Assembly (NCBI GenBank): GCA_934157205.1
Contig: CAKPHJ010000003.1
Coordinates: 2,624 to 66,623 of the forward strand
Length of the DNA: 64,000 nt
From: an uncultured Clostridia bacterium
GTDB lineage: Bacteria > Bacillota > Clostridia > TANB77 > CAG-508
Direction: 5' to 3'
A program made the translations under genes and the position numbers. Positions 32,588 to 34,444 of this stretch are shown one piece after another. Each line of letters opens with the position of its first letter. Position 1 is the stretch's first letter. The notes beneath the pieces were generated by a model. The model did not search any database and had not been told where the DNA came from. It saw nothing but the letters and a program-made list of their open reading frames with translations.

Positions 32588-32731
32588 TATCAAATGCACA
32601 ATATGCCTAAATTTATTTTTATAAAAATATAGTAAGTATTATAAAAATAAATTTAGGCATATTGATTTTTTATTATTGTCTCAAAATTTACATTTTGTTT
32701 GGCATTTGCATTCCTAATAATTCTGCACCCT
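32588..32731. repeat. direct repeat (left copy) flanking the AbiE module; carries the argS 3' end plus its terminator hairpin
   Basis: CAAATGCACAATATGCCTAAATTTATTTTTATAAAAAT...GGCATATTGATTTTTTATTATTGTCTCAAAATTTACATTTTGTTTGGCATTTGCATTCCTAATAATTCTGCACC. It matches 34320..34444 except for a ~20-nt insertion in the hairpin loop. Confidence 0.8.
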
Positions 32732-33569
32732 TGTTGTACGTATTTTTCAGTTTATTAATTGCTTTAATTACATCTTTAAAATCTATATCTTTAGCATACA
32801 AAAATCGATTCTGATATGATTTCCATCTAACATGCATTGTCTCATCATTTTCTATTAAATTTATTATTTTTTCAAAATTTTGTAAATCCTTTTCAGATTC
32901 TCGATGTTTAAATGTCATCGTGATTGCTTTTTGTAATGTTTCTTTATTAATCTCATTCCATTTATATGTTACAAAATAGTATAAATCAAAAAAGTCTTTC
33001 ATCCTACTATTTGCTACACTTCTTACTAATATTGTTTGAAATTTTTCAGCTATTATAGTTTCATAATTATATGTATATAATTCAATATAATCGTTTTCTA
33101 ATAAAGTTTTATATTTATATTTAATTGATTTTGGAGTTATAATATCTCCTGTGGAAATATCAATAAAAAAGGGGATTACAACATTATAAAATTGTCCAAT
33201 TATTTTATAACAATATCCTCCATATTCATTGTCTTCCCTTATAGTCTTTTCTTTACCAACTTTAAATGTAACATTATCATTTAACTCAATAACAGCAATT
33301 TCATTCAGTAGTTTTCTAATTTCTGTTTCATTAAAATCCATTCCAGTAATATTTGCATCAATATCCATCGTAGACCTAATGTTTATTCCCATTATTGAAG
33401 ATAGTAAGAATCCCCCTTTTAATATAAAATTGTCCTTATATTTTGACTTTGATAATCTTTCAAGAAATCGTTCAAACATAAAATTTTGTAACACTACTTG
33501 TACCTGTAAATTATTTTTATTGGCAAAGTTTTTTGCTTTATCTTTTAGTGATTGTACATTATTTATCAT
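32688..33569 (-). CDS. abiEii: AbiEii/AbiGii-family nucleotidyltransferase toxin (type IV toxin-antitoxin / abortive infection)
   Basis: 293 aa: ...FILKGGFLLS...MDIDANITG..., the AbiEii NTase signature. The last 13 residues (GAELLGMQMPNKM) are identical to the ArgS C-terminus because the gene ends inside the direct repeat. Confidence 0.85.
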   Translation of the reverse strand: MINNVQSLKDKAKNFANKNNLQVQVVLQNFMFERFLERLSKSKYKDNFILKGGFLLSSIMGINIRSTMDIDANITGMDFNETEIRKLLNEIAVIELNDNVTFKVGKEKTIREDNEYGGYCYKIIGQFYNVVIPFFIDISTGDIITPKSIKYKYKTLLENDYIELYTYNYETIIAEKFQTILVRSVANSRMKDFFDLYYFVTYKWNEINKETLQKAITMTFKHRESEKDLQNFEKIINLIENDETMHVRWKSYQNRFLYAKDIDFKDVIKAINKLKNTYNKGAELLGMQMPNKM

Positions 33570-33570
33570 A

Positions 33571-34164
33571 TTAATATAATACCTCCGTCATAGCTTTCAT
33601 TTTTCTATCACATTTTAATTTTTTAGCATAATCCATAAGAAGATTTAAATTAATCTGTTTACCTAAAAATGCATTTCTGATAATTTTATTGACTTGTTCA
33701 GTATCCAAACCACTATTATCATTTTTTACTAAATCACATATTGTTCTTTCAAGATTGTAACATATTATTTTATTTCCAAATGGAGTAATTTCTTCAACTG
33801 CACCAAGTTTCAAATATTCTTTTGGAACATAGTGAATTGCGATTTCCTGTGATATTCTGTGAGCATTGTAACCATTAGGAACTGTTATATCTATTCTATT
33901 AGGTATCACTTCAGTTTTTCCTAAAAAATATAGTGCTATATTATATGAAAAAATTATATTTGAATATTTTTGTTGCAATATGAAATAGCTGTCTTCAAAA
34001 TCTTCCACTTTATTATATATTCCATTATCAACTCTTTCAATTATATTGTCATCAATTAATTTATTTATAAAGAAAAAACCTATGTCGTTTTTTTTAAACT
34101 CCTTTGCTGTAATCATTCCTTTATGATTTTTAACAAATTCTTTTACATTCTCATAGTTAATCAT
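33571..34164 (-). CDS. abiEi: AbiEi-family antitoxin / transcriptional regulator
   Basis: 197 aa with an N-terminal winged HTH (MITAKEFKKNDIGFFFINKLIDDNIIERVDNGIY) and a C-terminal AbiEi domain. It is immediately upstream of, and abuts, abiEii. Confidence 0.8.
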   Translation of the reverse strand: MINYENVKEFVKNHKGMITAKEFKKNDIGFFFINKLIDDNIIERVDNGIYNKVEDFEDSYFILQQKYSNIIFSYNIALYFLGKTEVIPNRIDITVPNGYNAHRISQEIAIHYVPKEYLKLGAVEEITPFGNKIICYNLERTICDLVKNDNSGLDTEQVNKIIRNAFLGKQINLNLLMDYAKKLKCDRKMKAMTEVLY

Positions 34165-34319
34165 AATATTTTATCCCCTTACTTTACTATTATGCTTATA
34201 TTGTAGCATTTTATACGCATGGTAGTCAAGTTTTTTATAATTTTTAATATTATTATACTCATTTTTATGTTATTTATAATTTTTTTAGTCTGTTTTATTT
34301 CTTTGTTTATATTCTTTCC

Positions 34320-34444
34320 TATCAAATGCACAATATGCCTAAATTTATTTTTATAAAAATAAATTTAGGCATATTGATTTTTTATTATTGTCTCAAAATT
34401 TACATTTTGTTTGGCATTTGCATTCCTAATAATTCTGCACCCTT
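34320..34444. repeat. direct repeat (right copy): the native argS 3' end plus terminator hairpin
   Basis: Same sequence as 32588..32731. The ATGCCTAAATTTATTTTTATAAAAATAAATTTAGGCAT hairpin is the argS terminator. Confidence 0.8.

What the first reader, a model, noticed from the sequence alone, without database searches (positions are those of the whole stretch)
32588..34444. AbiEi/AbiEii abortive-infection module inserted at the argS 3' end, with ~125-bp target duplication that grafts the ArgS C-terminus onto AbiEii
- An AbiEi antitoxin (33571..34164) and an AbiEii nucleotidyltransferase toxin (32688..33569) sit between argS and the cps priming transferase.
- They are bracketed by direct repeats (32588..32731 and 34320..34444). 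Each repeat consists of the last ~45 nt of argS plus its terminator hairpin.
- As a result the AbiEii ORF ends with the identical 13 residues GAELLGMQMPNKM that terminate ArgS.
- The left repeat carries an extra ~20 nt inside the hairpin loop.
- This is clear evidence of a site-specific or homology-mediated insertion of a defence module.
- The module lies at the boundary of the capsule locus, a classic hotspot for defence islands.
Basis: partly seen in the sequence, partly recalled or inferred. Interest (0 to 1): 0.6.

Follow-up and report, generated by a model that had tools for sequence, protein, structure and literature searches.

The report
AbiE defence cassette with duplicated argS tail
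An ordinary two-gene AbiE phage-defence/toxin-antitoxin cassette lies between the arginyl-tRNA synthetase gene and a capsule locus in an uncultured gut Clostridia bacterium, flanked by two copies of the synthetase gene's last 43-45 bases plus hairpin; comparing strains shows the second copy came from sloppy recombination, not from a mobile-element integration mechanism.

Summary
Two direct repeats (32588-32732 and 34320-34444) are identical except for 20 extra bases at the tip of the left hairpin. They flank abiEi (33571-34164) and abiEii (32688-33569), and AbiEii ends in the ArgS tail KGAELLGMQMPNKM. Both proteins align over nearly their full length to the solved S. agalactiae AbiEi/AbiEii pair.

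The "target-site duplication" reading is only partly supported. Metagenome contigs of the same species show three haplotypes:
- A: the window, with the cassette and both repeats.
- B: the same cassette with the same argS-side junction but no distal repeat. AbiEii is 286 aa and ends NNVKFNAI.
- E: no cassette. The argS hairpin runs straight into the capsule promoter, exactly as the left repeat and its flank do in A.

The tree for the flanks is ((A,E),B). No integrase or transposase gene was found in the parts of the window that were annotated.

Best reading: the cassette arrived by illegitimate recombination, giving a B-type junction. A second illegitimate joint then fused abiEii codon 280 to argS codon 561 and produced A. 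The 125-nt repeats allow precise homologous excision, which gives E. The order of these events is not fully settled. The grafted tail is probably harmless. This is a known system with an interesting but modest structural polymorphism.

The parts
34400..36124 (-). argS (arginyl-tRNA synthetase, 574 aa). Its last 14 codons plus the stop codon are the coding part of the repeat.
   Evidence: Pfam Arg_tRNA_synt_N, tRNA-synt_1d and DALR_1. The C-terminal motif GA.LLG..MP.KM is conserved in ArgS of most of the 80 related species, so the tail originates from argS and not from abiEii.
34320..34444 (.). argS-proximal repeat copy (125 nt): the argS 3' end, stop codon, hairpin and 11 nt beyond.
   Evidence: The single copies in haplotypes B and E are homologous to it.
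34331..34376 (.). Perfect 46-nt palindrome (23+23). It is the presumed argS transcript 3' hairpin.
   Evidence: I6. RNA fold on the sense strand gives -23.8 kcal/mol, z = -5.9. A T-run follows it only on the + strand. The variants in B and E keep the sense-strand fold through G-U pairs but weaken the antisense fold.
34283..34319 (-). 37-nt leader that came in with the cassette.
   Evidence: It is absent from the empty-site haplotype E. It lies outside the 85.8%-identical cassette homology with L097, which begins at 34282.
34200..34229 (-). Promoter-like site upstream of abiEi (TTGACT-18-TACAAT with an extended TG).
   Evidence: Consensus scan only, and the number of such sites in the region does not exceed the shuffle expectation. 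It lies inside the conserved cassette. Function is inferred.
33571..34164 (-). abiEi (197 aa), the antitoxin and autorepressor.
   Evidence: PADLOC AbiEi 2.5e-54 over residues 3-197. PDB 9hlo_A at 1.7e-28 and 6y8q_A at 2.3e-28, both essentially full length. No Pfam AbiEi family is reached.
32688..33569 (-). abiEii (293 aa), a DUF1814 nucleotidyltransferase toxin. Codons 1-279 are native. Codon 280 spans the joint. Codons 281-293 and the stop codon are argS sequence (32688-32730).
   Evidence: Pfam AbiEii 1e-35 and PADLOC 3e-96. PDB 9hlo_B at 7.3e-49. Motif residues G52 G53, R65, T67, D69, D71, K176, R183, K191, D192 and D195 are invariant or nearly so among 120 homologues. 87 of those 120 homologues are 279-280 aa long.
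32588..32732 (.). Distal repeat copy (145 nt). It is fused in frame to abiEii and contains the 26-bp-stem hairpin at 32599-32664, with about 20 extra nt at the tip (about 32622-32641).
   Evidence: It is present in all haplotype A contigs (exact in four; L005 differs at one base) and absent from all six B contigs. The extra tip has no source elsewhere in the window.
32572..32587 (-). Capsule-side flank CTTTAATGTAATATAA. In E it follows the single repeat directly. In B it supplies the last codons F-N-A-I and the stop codon of abiEii.
32494..32522 (-). Promoter-like site of the capsule operon (TTGATA-17-TATAAT with TG), downstream of the distal hairpin.
   Evidence: Consensus scan only. Function is inferred.
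31625..32420 (-). Capsule priming sugar transferase (Bac_transf), split by a frameshift into 188-aa and 59-aa ORFs.
   Evidence: Pfam. tblastn with the intact L097 homologue switches frame at ...MSLV|GPRAV. The same split occurs in haplotypes A, B and E.

Best explanation
What it is:
- A 1.6-kb AbiE cassette, made of a promoter, abiEi and abiEii, sits between argS and the capsule (cps) locus.
- It is expected to work as characterised AbiE systems do. AbiEi represses its own operon and neutralises AbiEii. AbiEii is a DUF1814 nucleotidyltransferase that blocks translation by modifying tRNA.

How it probably got there:
- The cassette entered this species by illegitimate recombination, 11 nt beyond the argS hairpin. 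It lost its own stop codon and terminator in the process. This gives the B-type junction.
- In the window's lineage, a second illegitimate joint fused abiEii codon 280 to argS codon 561, with only 2 nt of microhomology (AA).
- That joint placed a second copy of the argS tail and hairpin between abiEii and the cps promoter.
- The joint could have arisen in two ways. One is an ectopic copy made within the chromosome. The other is recombination with DNA of a cassette-free strain during exchange across the cps boundary.

Consequences:
- AbiEii gains a 14-residue floppy tail in place of the 7-residue read-through tail of B.
- The operon gains a strong hairpin that haplotype B lacks.
- The cassette is now bracketed by 125-nt direct repeats, so ordinary homologous recombination can delete it precisely. 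The empty-site haplotype E has exactly that sequence.

Shown: the anatomy, the family membership, the three haplotypes and their junctions.
Inferred: the order of events, termination at the hairpin, tolerance of the tail, and excision.
For: Family membership:
- PADLOC and Pfam hits.
- Near full-length matches to the solved S. agalactiae complex 9hlo and to 6y8q.
- All catalytic motif residues, and the threonine equivalent to the S. agalactiae T65 phospho-site, are conserved (PMC3985639; bioRxiv 10.64898/2026.01.19.700257).

Haplotypes:
- A is found in five contigs that are at least 99.95% identical to the window. All five carry the distal repeat with the 20-nt tip, and the four long enough to reach argS carry both repeats.
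- B is found in six contigs from six samples. They are identical to each other at the locus and 98.7-99.3% identical to the window. Those reaching argS show the order argS, single repeat, abiEi, abiEii (286 aa), Bac_transf; all six carry the junction AACAA|TGTAAAA|TTTAATG.
- E (L115) has argS, a single repeat, then C-TTTAATG... and Bac_transf, with no abiE.
- A and B share the junction TTTGATA|GGAAAGAATA.

Polarity:
- Three-way SNP counts give ((A,E),B). Upstream: AE|B 38, BE|A 8, AB|E 7. Downstream: AE|B 8, AB|E 3, BE|A 0.
- Relative to E, B is a simple insertion at one point with loss of 1 nt. The left repeat and flank in A equal E's continuity, including the C.
- If A were ancestral, B's deletion would have to end within 1 nt of the repeat's end by coincidence.

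Foreign origin of the cassette:
- Window 34282-32756 is 85.8% identical at the nucleotide level to a cassette in another species (L097), whereas the adjacent Bac_transf is 68% identical.
- The best ArgS match outside this species' own sequences is only 78% identical.
- None of 80 related argS loci carries abiE.

Terminator gain:
- The intergenic region between abiEii and cps in B has no stable fold (-6.8 kcal/mol, z = 0.1).
- Homologous cassettes in L097 and L105 have 19-20-bp hairpins right after abiEii.

Tolerance of the tail:
- Family C-termini beyond residue about 275 vary in sequence and length.
- In the AlphaFold model, mean pLDDT is 89 for residues 271-280, 53 for 281-290 and 33 for 291-293.
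- C-terminally FLAG- or His-tagged S. agalactiae AbiEii stays toxic (PMC3985639).

No mobility genes were found.
Against: - The order of events is not proven.
- The argument that B's extra TGTAAAA (codons N-V-K) is native cassette sequence rests on weak similarity to the tails of P0004 and P0049. Most homologues end at residue 279-280, which is right at the A-type joint.
- Position -26 of the repeat is G in both B and E but A in both copies of haplotype A. If E arose from an A-type ancestor, this requires a later mutation followed by gene conversion.
- E rests on a single 3.6-kb Logan contig.
- The hairpin has no U-tract in the sense direction, so termination there is not assured.
- No expression or phenotype data exist for this uncultured organism.
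Confidence: 0.55

Rival explanations
1. The cassette inserted into a naive argS-cps site and created the 125-nt duplication in that same event. It could have done so through staggered illegitimate joins of its two ends, or through Campbell-type integration of a circle carrying the argS tail. Haplotype A is then primary. B lost the distal repeat later, and E is either naive or a revertant.
For: - The empty-site haplotype E matches the expectation exactly: one repeat, then C-TTTAATG.
- The two copies in A are identical.
- Most AbiEii homologues end at residue 279-280, which is at the A-type joint. A truncation there that loses only the stop codon is therefore plausible.
Against: - B shares the proximal junction but lacks the distal copy.
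- To derive B from A, a deletion must remove the 145-nt copy, end within 1 nt of the repeat boundary and add a 7-nt filler (TGTAAAA).
- No recombinase gene was found.
- A circle carrying the argS tail presupposes an earlier B-like linkage of the cassette to argS.
Confidence: 0.2
2. The module is a site-specific integrative element whose attachment site is the argS 3' end. The two repeats are attL and attR, and an integrase encoded elsewhere mobilises it in trans (a CIME-like element).
For: - Direct repeats that include the 3' end of a housekeeping gene are typical of integrase-borne islands (general knowledge, for example phage 21/e14 at icd).
- More distant relatives of the cassette (P0013, 69% identity) lie in islands with a phage-type integrase and a primase.
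Against: - No integrase lies within 10 kb or among the other ORFs scanned.
- Haplotype B shows stable occupancy without the second site.
- The closest cassette relatives sit in other contexts (Type III RM, VanZ, LytR) without argS-like repeats.
- None of 80 related species has anything inserted with an argS-tail duplication.
- The joint lies inside the abiEii coding sequence, with only 2 nt of microhomology.
Confidence: 0.04
3. The repeat structure, or one of the haplotypes, is an assembly artefact. Examples would be repeat-induced mis-joins or collapse in metagenome assemblies.
For: - All sequences come from metagenome assemblies.
- E is a single Logan contig.
- A 125-nt repeat can mislead short-k assemblers.
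Against: - A is recovered identically by MEGAHIT, metaSPAdes and a third pipeline in at least four samples. B is recovered identically in six samples.
- B's junction cannot be produced by collapsing the repeats.
- E carries its own SNPs and different cps genes downstream. It is therefore a distinct strain and not a collapsed A.
Confidence: 0.03

Closest known systems
AbiE (AbiEi/AbiEii) abortive-infection toxin-antitoxin system of Streptococcus agalactiae and Lactococcus lactis. It was described as Type IV (Dy et al. 2014, PMC3985639) and recently reclassified as Type VII (bioRxiv 10.64898/2026.01.19.700257). Structures: PDB 9hlo and 6y8q.
   Same: - A bicistronic operon with the antitoxin gene first and only a 1-nt gap between the genes.
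- AbiEi is 197 aa and AbiEii about 280 aa.
- Both align over nearly their full length to the solved pair (7.3e-49 and 1.7e-28).
- NTase motifs I-IV and the phospho-acceptor threonine are conserved.
   Different: - AbiEii carries a 14-residue C-terminal tail copied from ArgS.
- AbiEi does not reach any Pfam AbiEi family.
- No activity, autoregulation or phage-defence data exist for this organism.
Homology-facilitated illegitimate recombination (HFIR) during uptake of foreign DNA (defined in PMC3240628 and the references it cites).
   Same: - An insertion whose joint has only a few bases of microhomology.
- It lies next to long flanking homology and is coupled to a small loss of resident sequence (7 nt, or 1 nt).
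- It sits at a locus where strains exchange capsule genes.
   Different: - It is not shown that this organism is transformable.
- The anchor tract cannot be seen in the SNP pattern.
- An ectopic copy made within the chromosome explains the data about equally well.
Integrase-borne islands and prophages that duplicate the 3' end of their target gene, such as e14 and phage 21 at icd, or tRNA-gene islands (recalled from general knowledge).
   Same: Direct repeats that include the 3' end of a housekeeping gene bracket an accessory module, and the target gene stays intact.
   Different: - No integrase was found.
- The repeat is fused in frame to a cargo gene.
- A sister haplotype lacks the distal repeat.
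- Relatives of the cassette occupy other sites.

Membership tests
AbiE toxin AbiEii (DUF1814 / COG2253 nucleotidyltransferase) | Sequence membership: the Pfam PF08843 profile above its gathering score, and similarity to a characterised member. | tested here: met
   PF08843 scores 124.2 bits against a cut-off of 22.5. PADLOC PDLC02288 gives 3e-96. PDB 9hlo_B gives 7.3e-49 over residues 19-270.
AbiE toxin AbiEii (DUF1814 / COG2253 nucleotidyltransferase) | Catalytic motifs I-IV: hG[G/S], R..DhD, K......R and +DxxD. Mutating any of them abolishes toxicity in S. agalactiae (PMC3985639). | tested here: met
   G52 G53; R65, T67, D69, D71; K176, R183; K191, D192, D195. All are present in the window protein and are invariant or at least 90% conserved among 120 homologues.
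AbiE toxin AbiEii (DUF1814 / COG2253 nucleotidyltransferase) | Growth-inhibiting NTase activity on tRNA. | not testable with these tools
   This needs expression and toxicity assays plus tRNA nucleotidylation assays.
AbiE antitoxin AbiEi (COG5340: wHTH domain plus antitoxin domain) | Sequence membership and two-domain length (about 195 aa). | tested here: met
   PADLOC PDLC02225 gives 2.5e-54 over residues 3-197. PDB 9hlo_A (1.7e-28) and 6y8q_A (2.3e-28) align over residues 5-196. There is only a sub-threshold Pfam DUF6577 hit (23.5 bits against a cut-off of 27.8) and no NCBIfam hit.
AbiE antitoxin AbiEi (COG5340: wHTH domain plus antitoxin domain) | Encoded immediately upstream of the toxin gene in one operon. 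| tested here: met
   The abiEi stop codon ends at 33571 and the abiEii start codon begins at 33569, on the same strand. The same pairing is seen in every homologous locus examined where abiEi lies on the contig.
AbiE antitoxin AbiEi (COG5340: wHTH domain plus antitoxin domain) | Negative autoregulation through inverted repeats in the promoter. | tested here: inconclusive
   Only short, imperfect inverted repeats (10-13 nt) are found in 34150-34330. No binding data exist.
Abortive-infection phage defence | Protects a population from phage infection. | not testable with these tools
   The organism is uncultured. Even the S. agalactiae system showed no anti-phage phenotype under the conditions tested in E. 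coli (bioRxiv 10.64898/2026.01.19.700257).
Integrase-mediated integrative element (attL/attR) | A tyrosine or serine recombinase encoded in or next to the element. | tested here: not met
   None is found among the called genes within 10 kb on either side or among 30 further ORFs of the window.
Integrase-mediated integrative element (attL/attR) | Both att repeats are present wherever the element is integrated. | tested here: not met
   Haplotype B carries the cassette at the same proximal junction without the distal repeat.
Transposon-type target-site duplication | A short duplication (2-15 bp) made by staggered cleavage, with terminal inverted repeats and a transposase. | tested here: not met
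   The duplication is 125 nt. No terminal inverted repeats of the cassette were reported and no transposase was found.
Rho-independent terminator (the hairpin in the repeat) | A G+C-rich stem followed by a U-tract on the transcribed strand. | tested here: inconclusive
   The stem is strong but A/T-rich (-23.8 and -30.8 kcal/mol). The T-run is on the antisense strand only, and the sense strand reads UGCAUUUGAUA. Variants in B and E preserve the sense-strand fold through G-U pairs.

The most novel reading that the evidence does not exclude
The 125-nt repeats turn a recombinase-free AbiE cassette into a reversible on/off element. Ordinary homologous recombination can flip it out, giving haplotype E, and it can be re-acquired during capsule-locus exchange. 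In addition, this cassette lineage is specifically linked to the 5' edge of capsule loci in four lineages, counting this species. That would point to co-transfer with capsule switching, or to a hairpin-directed entry point, rather than to chance.
Probability: 0.15. Interest if true: 0.5.

Novelty: new member of a known kind. Interest (0 to 1): 0.3.

Why it matters
The case shows how a defence cassette can be gained, remodelled and lost at a housekeeping-gene/capsule boundary without any dedicated mobility gene. All three states are preserved in wild gut populations. It is also a caution for annotation: long direct repeats around an accessory module need not be attachment sites or target duplications. 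The system itself (AbiE) is well known, so the value lies in the micro-evolutionary example and not in a new mechanism.

Tried and rejected
- Related-species comparison. The 80 argS loci from GTDB species representatives were too distant to give an empty site. Their ArgS is at most 78% identical and the regions downstream of argS are unrelated.
- ArgS homologue search. It found no lineage between 78% and 100% identity. The top hit, P0121 (874 aa), is an internally duplicated ArgS from another species and was discarded.
- Two exact-protein look-ups for distant window genes found nothing and wasted look-ups.
- A scan of JGI metagenome contigs for the argS 3' end gave 0 hits.
- Intermediate conclusion later revised. 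After seeing only haplotype B, I concluded that the repeats were a purely intrachromosomal secondary copy unrelated to insertion. The empty-site contig forced a revision, because the left repeat and its flank reproduce the empty-site continuity exactly.
- Search for the source of the 20-nt hairpin tip. No other copy exists in the window.
- A two-deletion route from A to B through the argS ATGTAAA motif. Rejected because the A-run lengths do not fit.
- RNA-mediated (retro) copying of the argS mRNA 3' end. The repeat ends 11 nt after the hairpin, but no reverse transcriptase is present in the ORFs scanned, and the empty-site continuity explains that boundary better.
- IS200/IS605-like targeting. 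A TTGAT motif lies at the junction, but there is no TnpA/TnpB and there are no subterminal hairpins, so this is treated as coincidence.
- Nucleotide comparison with the P0004 cassette (L116), meant to prove that TGTAAAA is native cassette sequence. It gave only weak similarity.
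Full report
**1. Observation**

- All genes here are on the minus strand.
- In gene order they are argS (34400-36124), abiEi (33571-34164), abiEii (32688-33569) and the capsule priming transferase (from 32420).
- Two direct repeats, 32588-32732 and 34320-34444, are identical except for 20 extra bases at the tip of the left hairpin.
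- Each half of the repeat occurs exactly twice in 64 kb, against about 0 expected.
- The repeat consists of the last 14 codons of argS, the stop codon, 24 nt, a long A/T-rich hairpin and 11 nt.
- The right copy is a perfect 46-nt palindrome. The left copy has a 26-bp stem and a 14-nt loop.
- AbiEii therefore ends ...NTYN-KGAELLGMQMPNKM, the same tail as ArgS.
- The motif GA.LLG..MP.KM is conserved in ArgS of most of the 80 related species. The direction of the graft is therefore from argS to abiEii.

**2. Identity of the genes**

AbiEii:
- It matches Pfam PF08843 (1e-35) and PADLOC AbiEii (3e-96).
- It matches chain B of PDB 9hlo at 7.3e-49.

AbiEi:
- It fails the Pfam AbiEi families, with only a sub-threshold DUF6577 hit, and it has no NCBIfam hit.
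- It matches PADLOC AbiEi (2.5e-54).
- It matches 9hlo chain A and 6y8q over essentially its full length (1.7e-28 and 2.3e-28).

Functional residues:
- Dy et al. (PMC3985639) showed that motifs I-IV are needed for toxicity of S. agalactiae AbiEii. Their counterparts here are G52/G53, R65/D69/D71, K176/R183 and K191-D192..D195.
- All are invariant or nearly so among 120 homologues.
- T67 is the counterpart of the T65 auto-phosphorylation site described in bioRxiv 10.64898/2026.01.19.700257. It is also invariant.

Membership of the AbiE family is therefore secure. Activity is inferred.

**3. Organism and context**

- The window has 25.5% G+C.
- It comes from an uncultured gut Clostridia lineage. 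The nearest named relatives include Clostridium sp. CAG:389, 26_22 and CAG:508.
- The best ArgS match outside this species' own sequences is only 78% identical.
- The surroundings are core genes (cysS, galE, a PBP, metS, pyk and others) and a capsule locus running from about 16.7 to 32.4 kb.
- No integrase, transposase or reverse transcriptase was found within 10 kb or among 30 further large ORFs.

**4. Three haplotypes of the same species**

Exact-protein look-ups recovered three arrangements.

Haplotype A:
- It comprises the window and contigs L001-L005, from at least four samples and three assemblers.
- These contigs are at least 99.95% identical to the window.
- All five carry the distal repeat with the 20-nt tip. 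The four that are long enough to reach argS carry both repeats.

Haplotype B:
- It comprises L091-L096, from six samples. They are identical to each other at the locus and 98.7-99.3% identical to the window.
- In the contigs long enough to reach argS, the order is argS, one repeat, abiEi, abiEii, Bac_transf.
- AbiEii is 286 aa and ends ...NTYNNVKFNAI.
- In the alignment, A has (AA)GGGTGCAG...GCATTTGATA-C where B has TGTAAAA.
- Both then continue TTTAATG[T/C]AATATAA..., and in B that sequence supplies the last codons and the stop codon.
- A and B share the same proximal junction, TTTGATA|GGAAAGAATA.

Haplotype E:
- It is L115, a 3.6-kb Logan contig found through an ArgS cluster variant.
- It has no cassette. 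argS and one short hairpin run directly into C-TTTAATGTAATATAA... and Bac_transf.
- That continuity is identical to the left repeat and its flank in A.
- E is therefore exactly what recombination between the two repeats of A would leave. Equally, it could be what a never-occupied site would look like.

**5. Polarity**

- Three-way SNP patterns give ((A,E),B) on both sides of the locus. Upstream: AE|B 38, BE|A 8, AB|E 7. Downstream: AE|B 8, AB|E 3, BE|A 0.
- The cassettes of A and B differ at 12 of 1585 positions. This is similar to the divergence of the flanks, so the cassette looks vertically inherited in both.
- Relative to E, B is a clean insertion at a single point with loss of one base. 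A carries the same insertion, plus a second copy of the argS tail and hairpin, minus 7 nt of B's abiEii end.
- If A were primary, B's later deletion would have to end within 1 nt of the repeat boundary and add a 7-nt filler. That is an unlikely coincidence.
- B's extra codons N-V-K weakly resemble the tails of the relatives P0004 (..YDINIKEE) and P0049 (..IYNKMKQ).

I therefore favour a B-type junction as the original one and A as derived. Two routes from B to A fit about equally well.
- Route (i): an ectopic copy of argS codon 561 through the end of the repeat is inserted into abiEii codon 280, and E arises later by homologous excision. This route fits the tree best.
- Route (ii): a cassette-bearing chromosome recombines with DNA of a cassette-free strain, with homologous pairing in the cps flank and an illegitimate joint at AA. 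This is the HFIR pattern (PMC3240628).

Route (ii) is plausible because strains here differ in capsule gene content immediately downstream. E diverges completely about 958 nt after the junction.

Unresolved points:
- Position -26 of the repeat is G in B and E but A in both copies of haplotype A. Under route (i) this needs a later gene conversion. Under route (ii) it needs an unsampled donor.
- The primary target-duplication model remains possible (about 0.2).
- An integrase/att model is essentially excluded by haplotype B, by the absence of a recombinase, and by the different contexts of the cassette's relatives.

**6. The cassette is foreign**

- Window 34282-32756 is 85.8% identical at the nucleotide level to a cassette in another species (L097). 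There it lies between a Type III restriction enzyme gene and VanZ/Bac_transf. The neighbouring Bac_transf is only 68% identical.
- Homology stops at about codon 271 of abiEii, before the variable tail.
- L097 and L105 have their own 19-20-bp hairpins right after abiEii. B has no stable structure between abiEii and the cps promoter (-6.8 kcal/mol, z = 0.1).
- So the cassette seems to have lost its stop codon and terminator on arrival. The A-type event supplied a hairpin copied from argS.

Whether that hairpin terminates transcription is uncertain.
- The canonical T-run lies on the antisense strand.
- However, sequence variants in B and E preserve the sense-strand fold through G-U pairs and weaken the antisense fold.

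**7. Is the chimeric toxin functional?**

- 87 of the 120 closest homologues are 279-280 aa long. Tails beyond residue about 275 vary freely in sequence and length, from 277 to 301 aa.
- The Pfam domain ends at residue 267.
- In the AlphaFold model (mean pLDDT 82.8), the last helix spans 264-284. Mean pLDDT is 89 for residues 271-280, 53 for 281-290 and 33 for 291-293.
- C-terminal FLAG or His tags do not abolish toxicity of the S. agalactiae protein, whereas an N-terminal tag does (PMC3985639).
- The ORF is intact and identical in all A contigs.

The graft is most likely neutral. This is an inference.

**8. Capsule-edge association**

Relatives of the cassette lie at the edge of capsule loci in four of the six cassette lineages whose contexts were examined, counting this species:
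- this species;
- P0003, upstream of VanZ-Bac_transf;
- P0004, upstream of Bac_transf;
- P0006, between VanZ and LytR_cpsA_psr, with two different capsule gene sets upstream.

Two other lineages are elsewhere, one of them in integrase/primase islands. It was not tested against a null expectation.

**9. Verdict**

- The insertion-scar interpretation is partly supported. An empty site exists and matches, but the duplication is not an obligatory product of the insertion and no site-specific machinery is involved.
- The system is a new member of a known kind, with a tidy three-state structural polymorphism.
- Interest is modest, about 0.3.

Noticed in passing
window 31625-32420 (minus strand), frame switch near 31858-31862: The capsule priming sugar transferase (Bac_transf) is split by a 1-nt frameshift into 188-aa and 59-aa ORFs. 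The same split is present in haplotypes A, B and E, so it is real and species-wide. Relatives have an intact gene of 228-232 aa. The capsule locus may be inactive or may need frameshifting.
   Followed up: partly
window 34331-34376 and 32599-32664: The hairpin after argS has its canonical T-run only on the + strand, antisense to every large gene in the window, with an A-tract on the sense side. It looks like a terminator facing the wrong way, or a bidirectional one. Natural variants keep the sense-strand fold through G-U pairs.
   Followed up: partly
window about 32622-32641: The 20 extra bases at the tip of the left hairpin convert a loop-less perfect palindrome into a 26-bp stem with a 14-nt loop. 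They have no other copy in the window and are absent from the right copy and from haplotypes B and E. Their origin is unknown.
   Followed up: partly
L097 9406-10840; L116 1-1181; L105-L108 (abiE between VanZ and LytR_cpsA_psr): Close relatives of this AbiE cassette (78-85% amino-acid identity) in other species also sit directly at the edge of capsule or EPS loci, co-oriented with them. In L105 and L106 they sit next to two different capsule gene sets.
   Followed up: partly
L115 from about 3345 onward, compared with window about 31625 downward: The empty-site strain carries different capsule genes after Bac_transf. Its sequence diverges completely about 958 nt after the junction and resembles L116 instead of the window's glf. 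This indicates capsule-locus exchange within the species, anchored at argS/Bac_transf.
   Followed up: no
window 34319-34078 compared with L091: Eight of the 12 substitutions between the cassettes of A and B fall in the first 242 nt (leader, promoter and the 5' end of abiEi). Only 4 fall in the remaining 1343 nt. This suggests a recombination breakpoint inside the cassette.
   Followed up: no
window 55886-56731 (minus strand): A KilA-N domain protein (281 aa) lies among short ORFs at 54.3-59.5 kb. This may be a small prophage remnant or another accessory region. It is the only phage-like signature seen in the ORFs scanned.
   Followed up: no
P0121 (NCBI, 874 aa): An 'ArgS' of 874 aa from another species contains two internal duplications of its own sequence. 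It is probably a mis-assembly in the deposited MAG.
   Followed up: no
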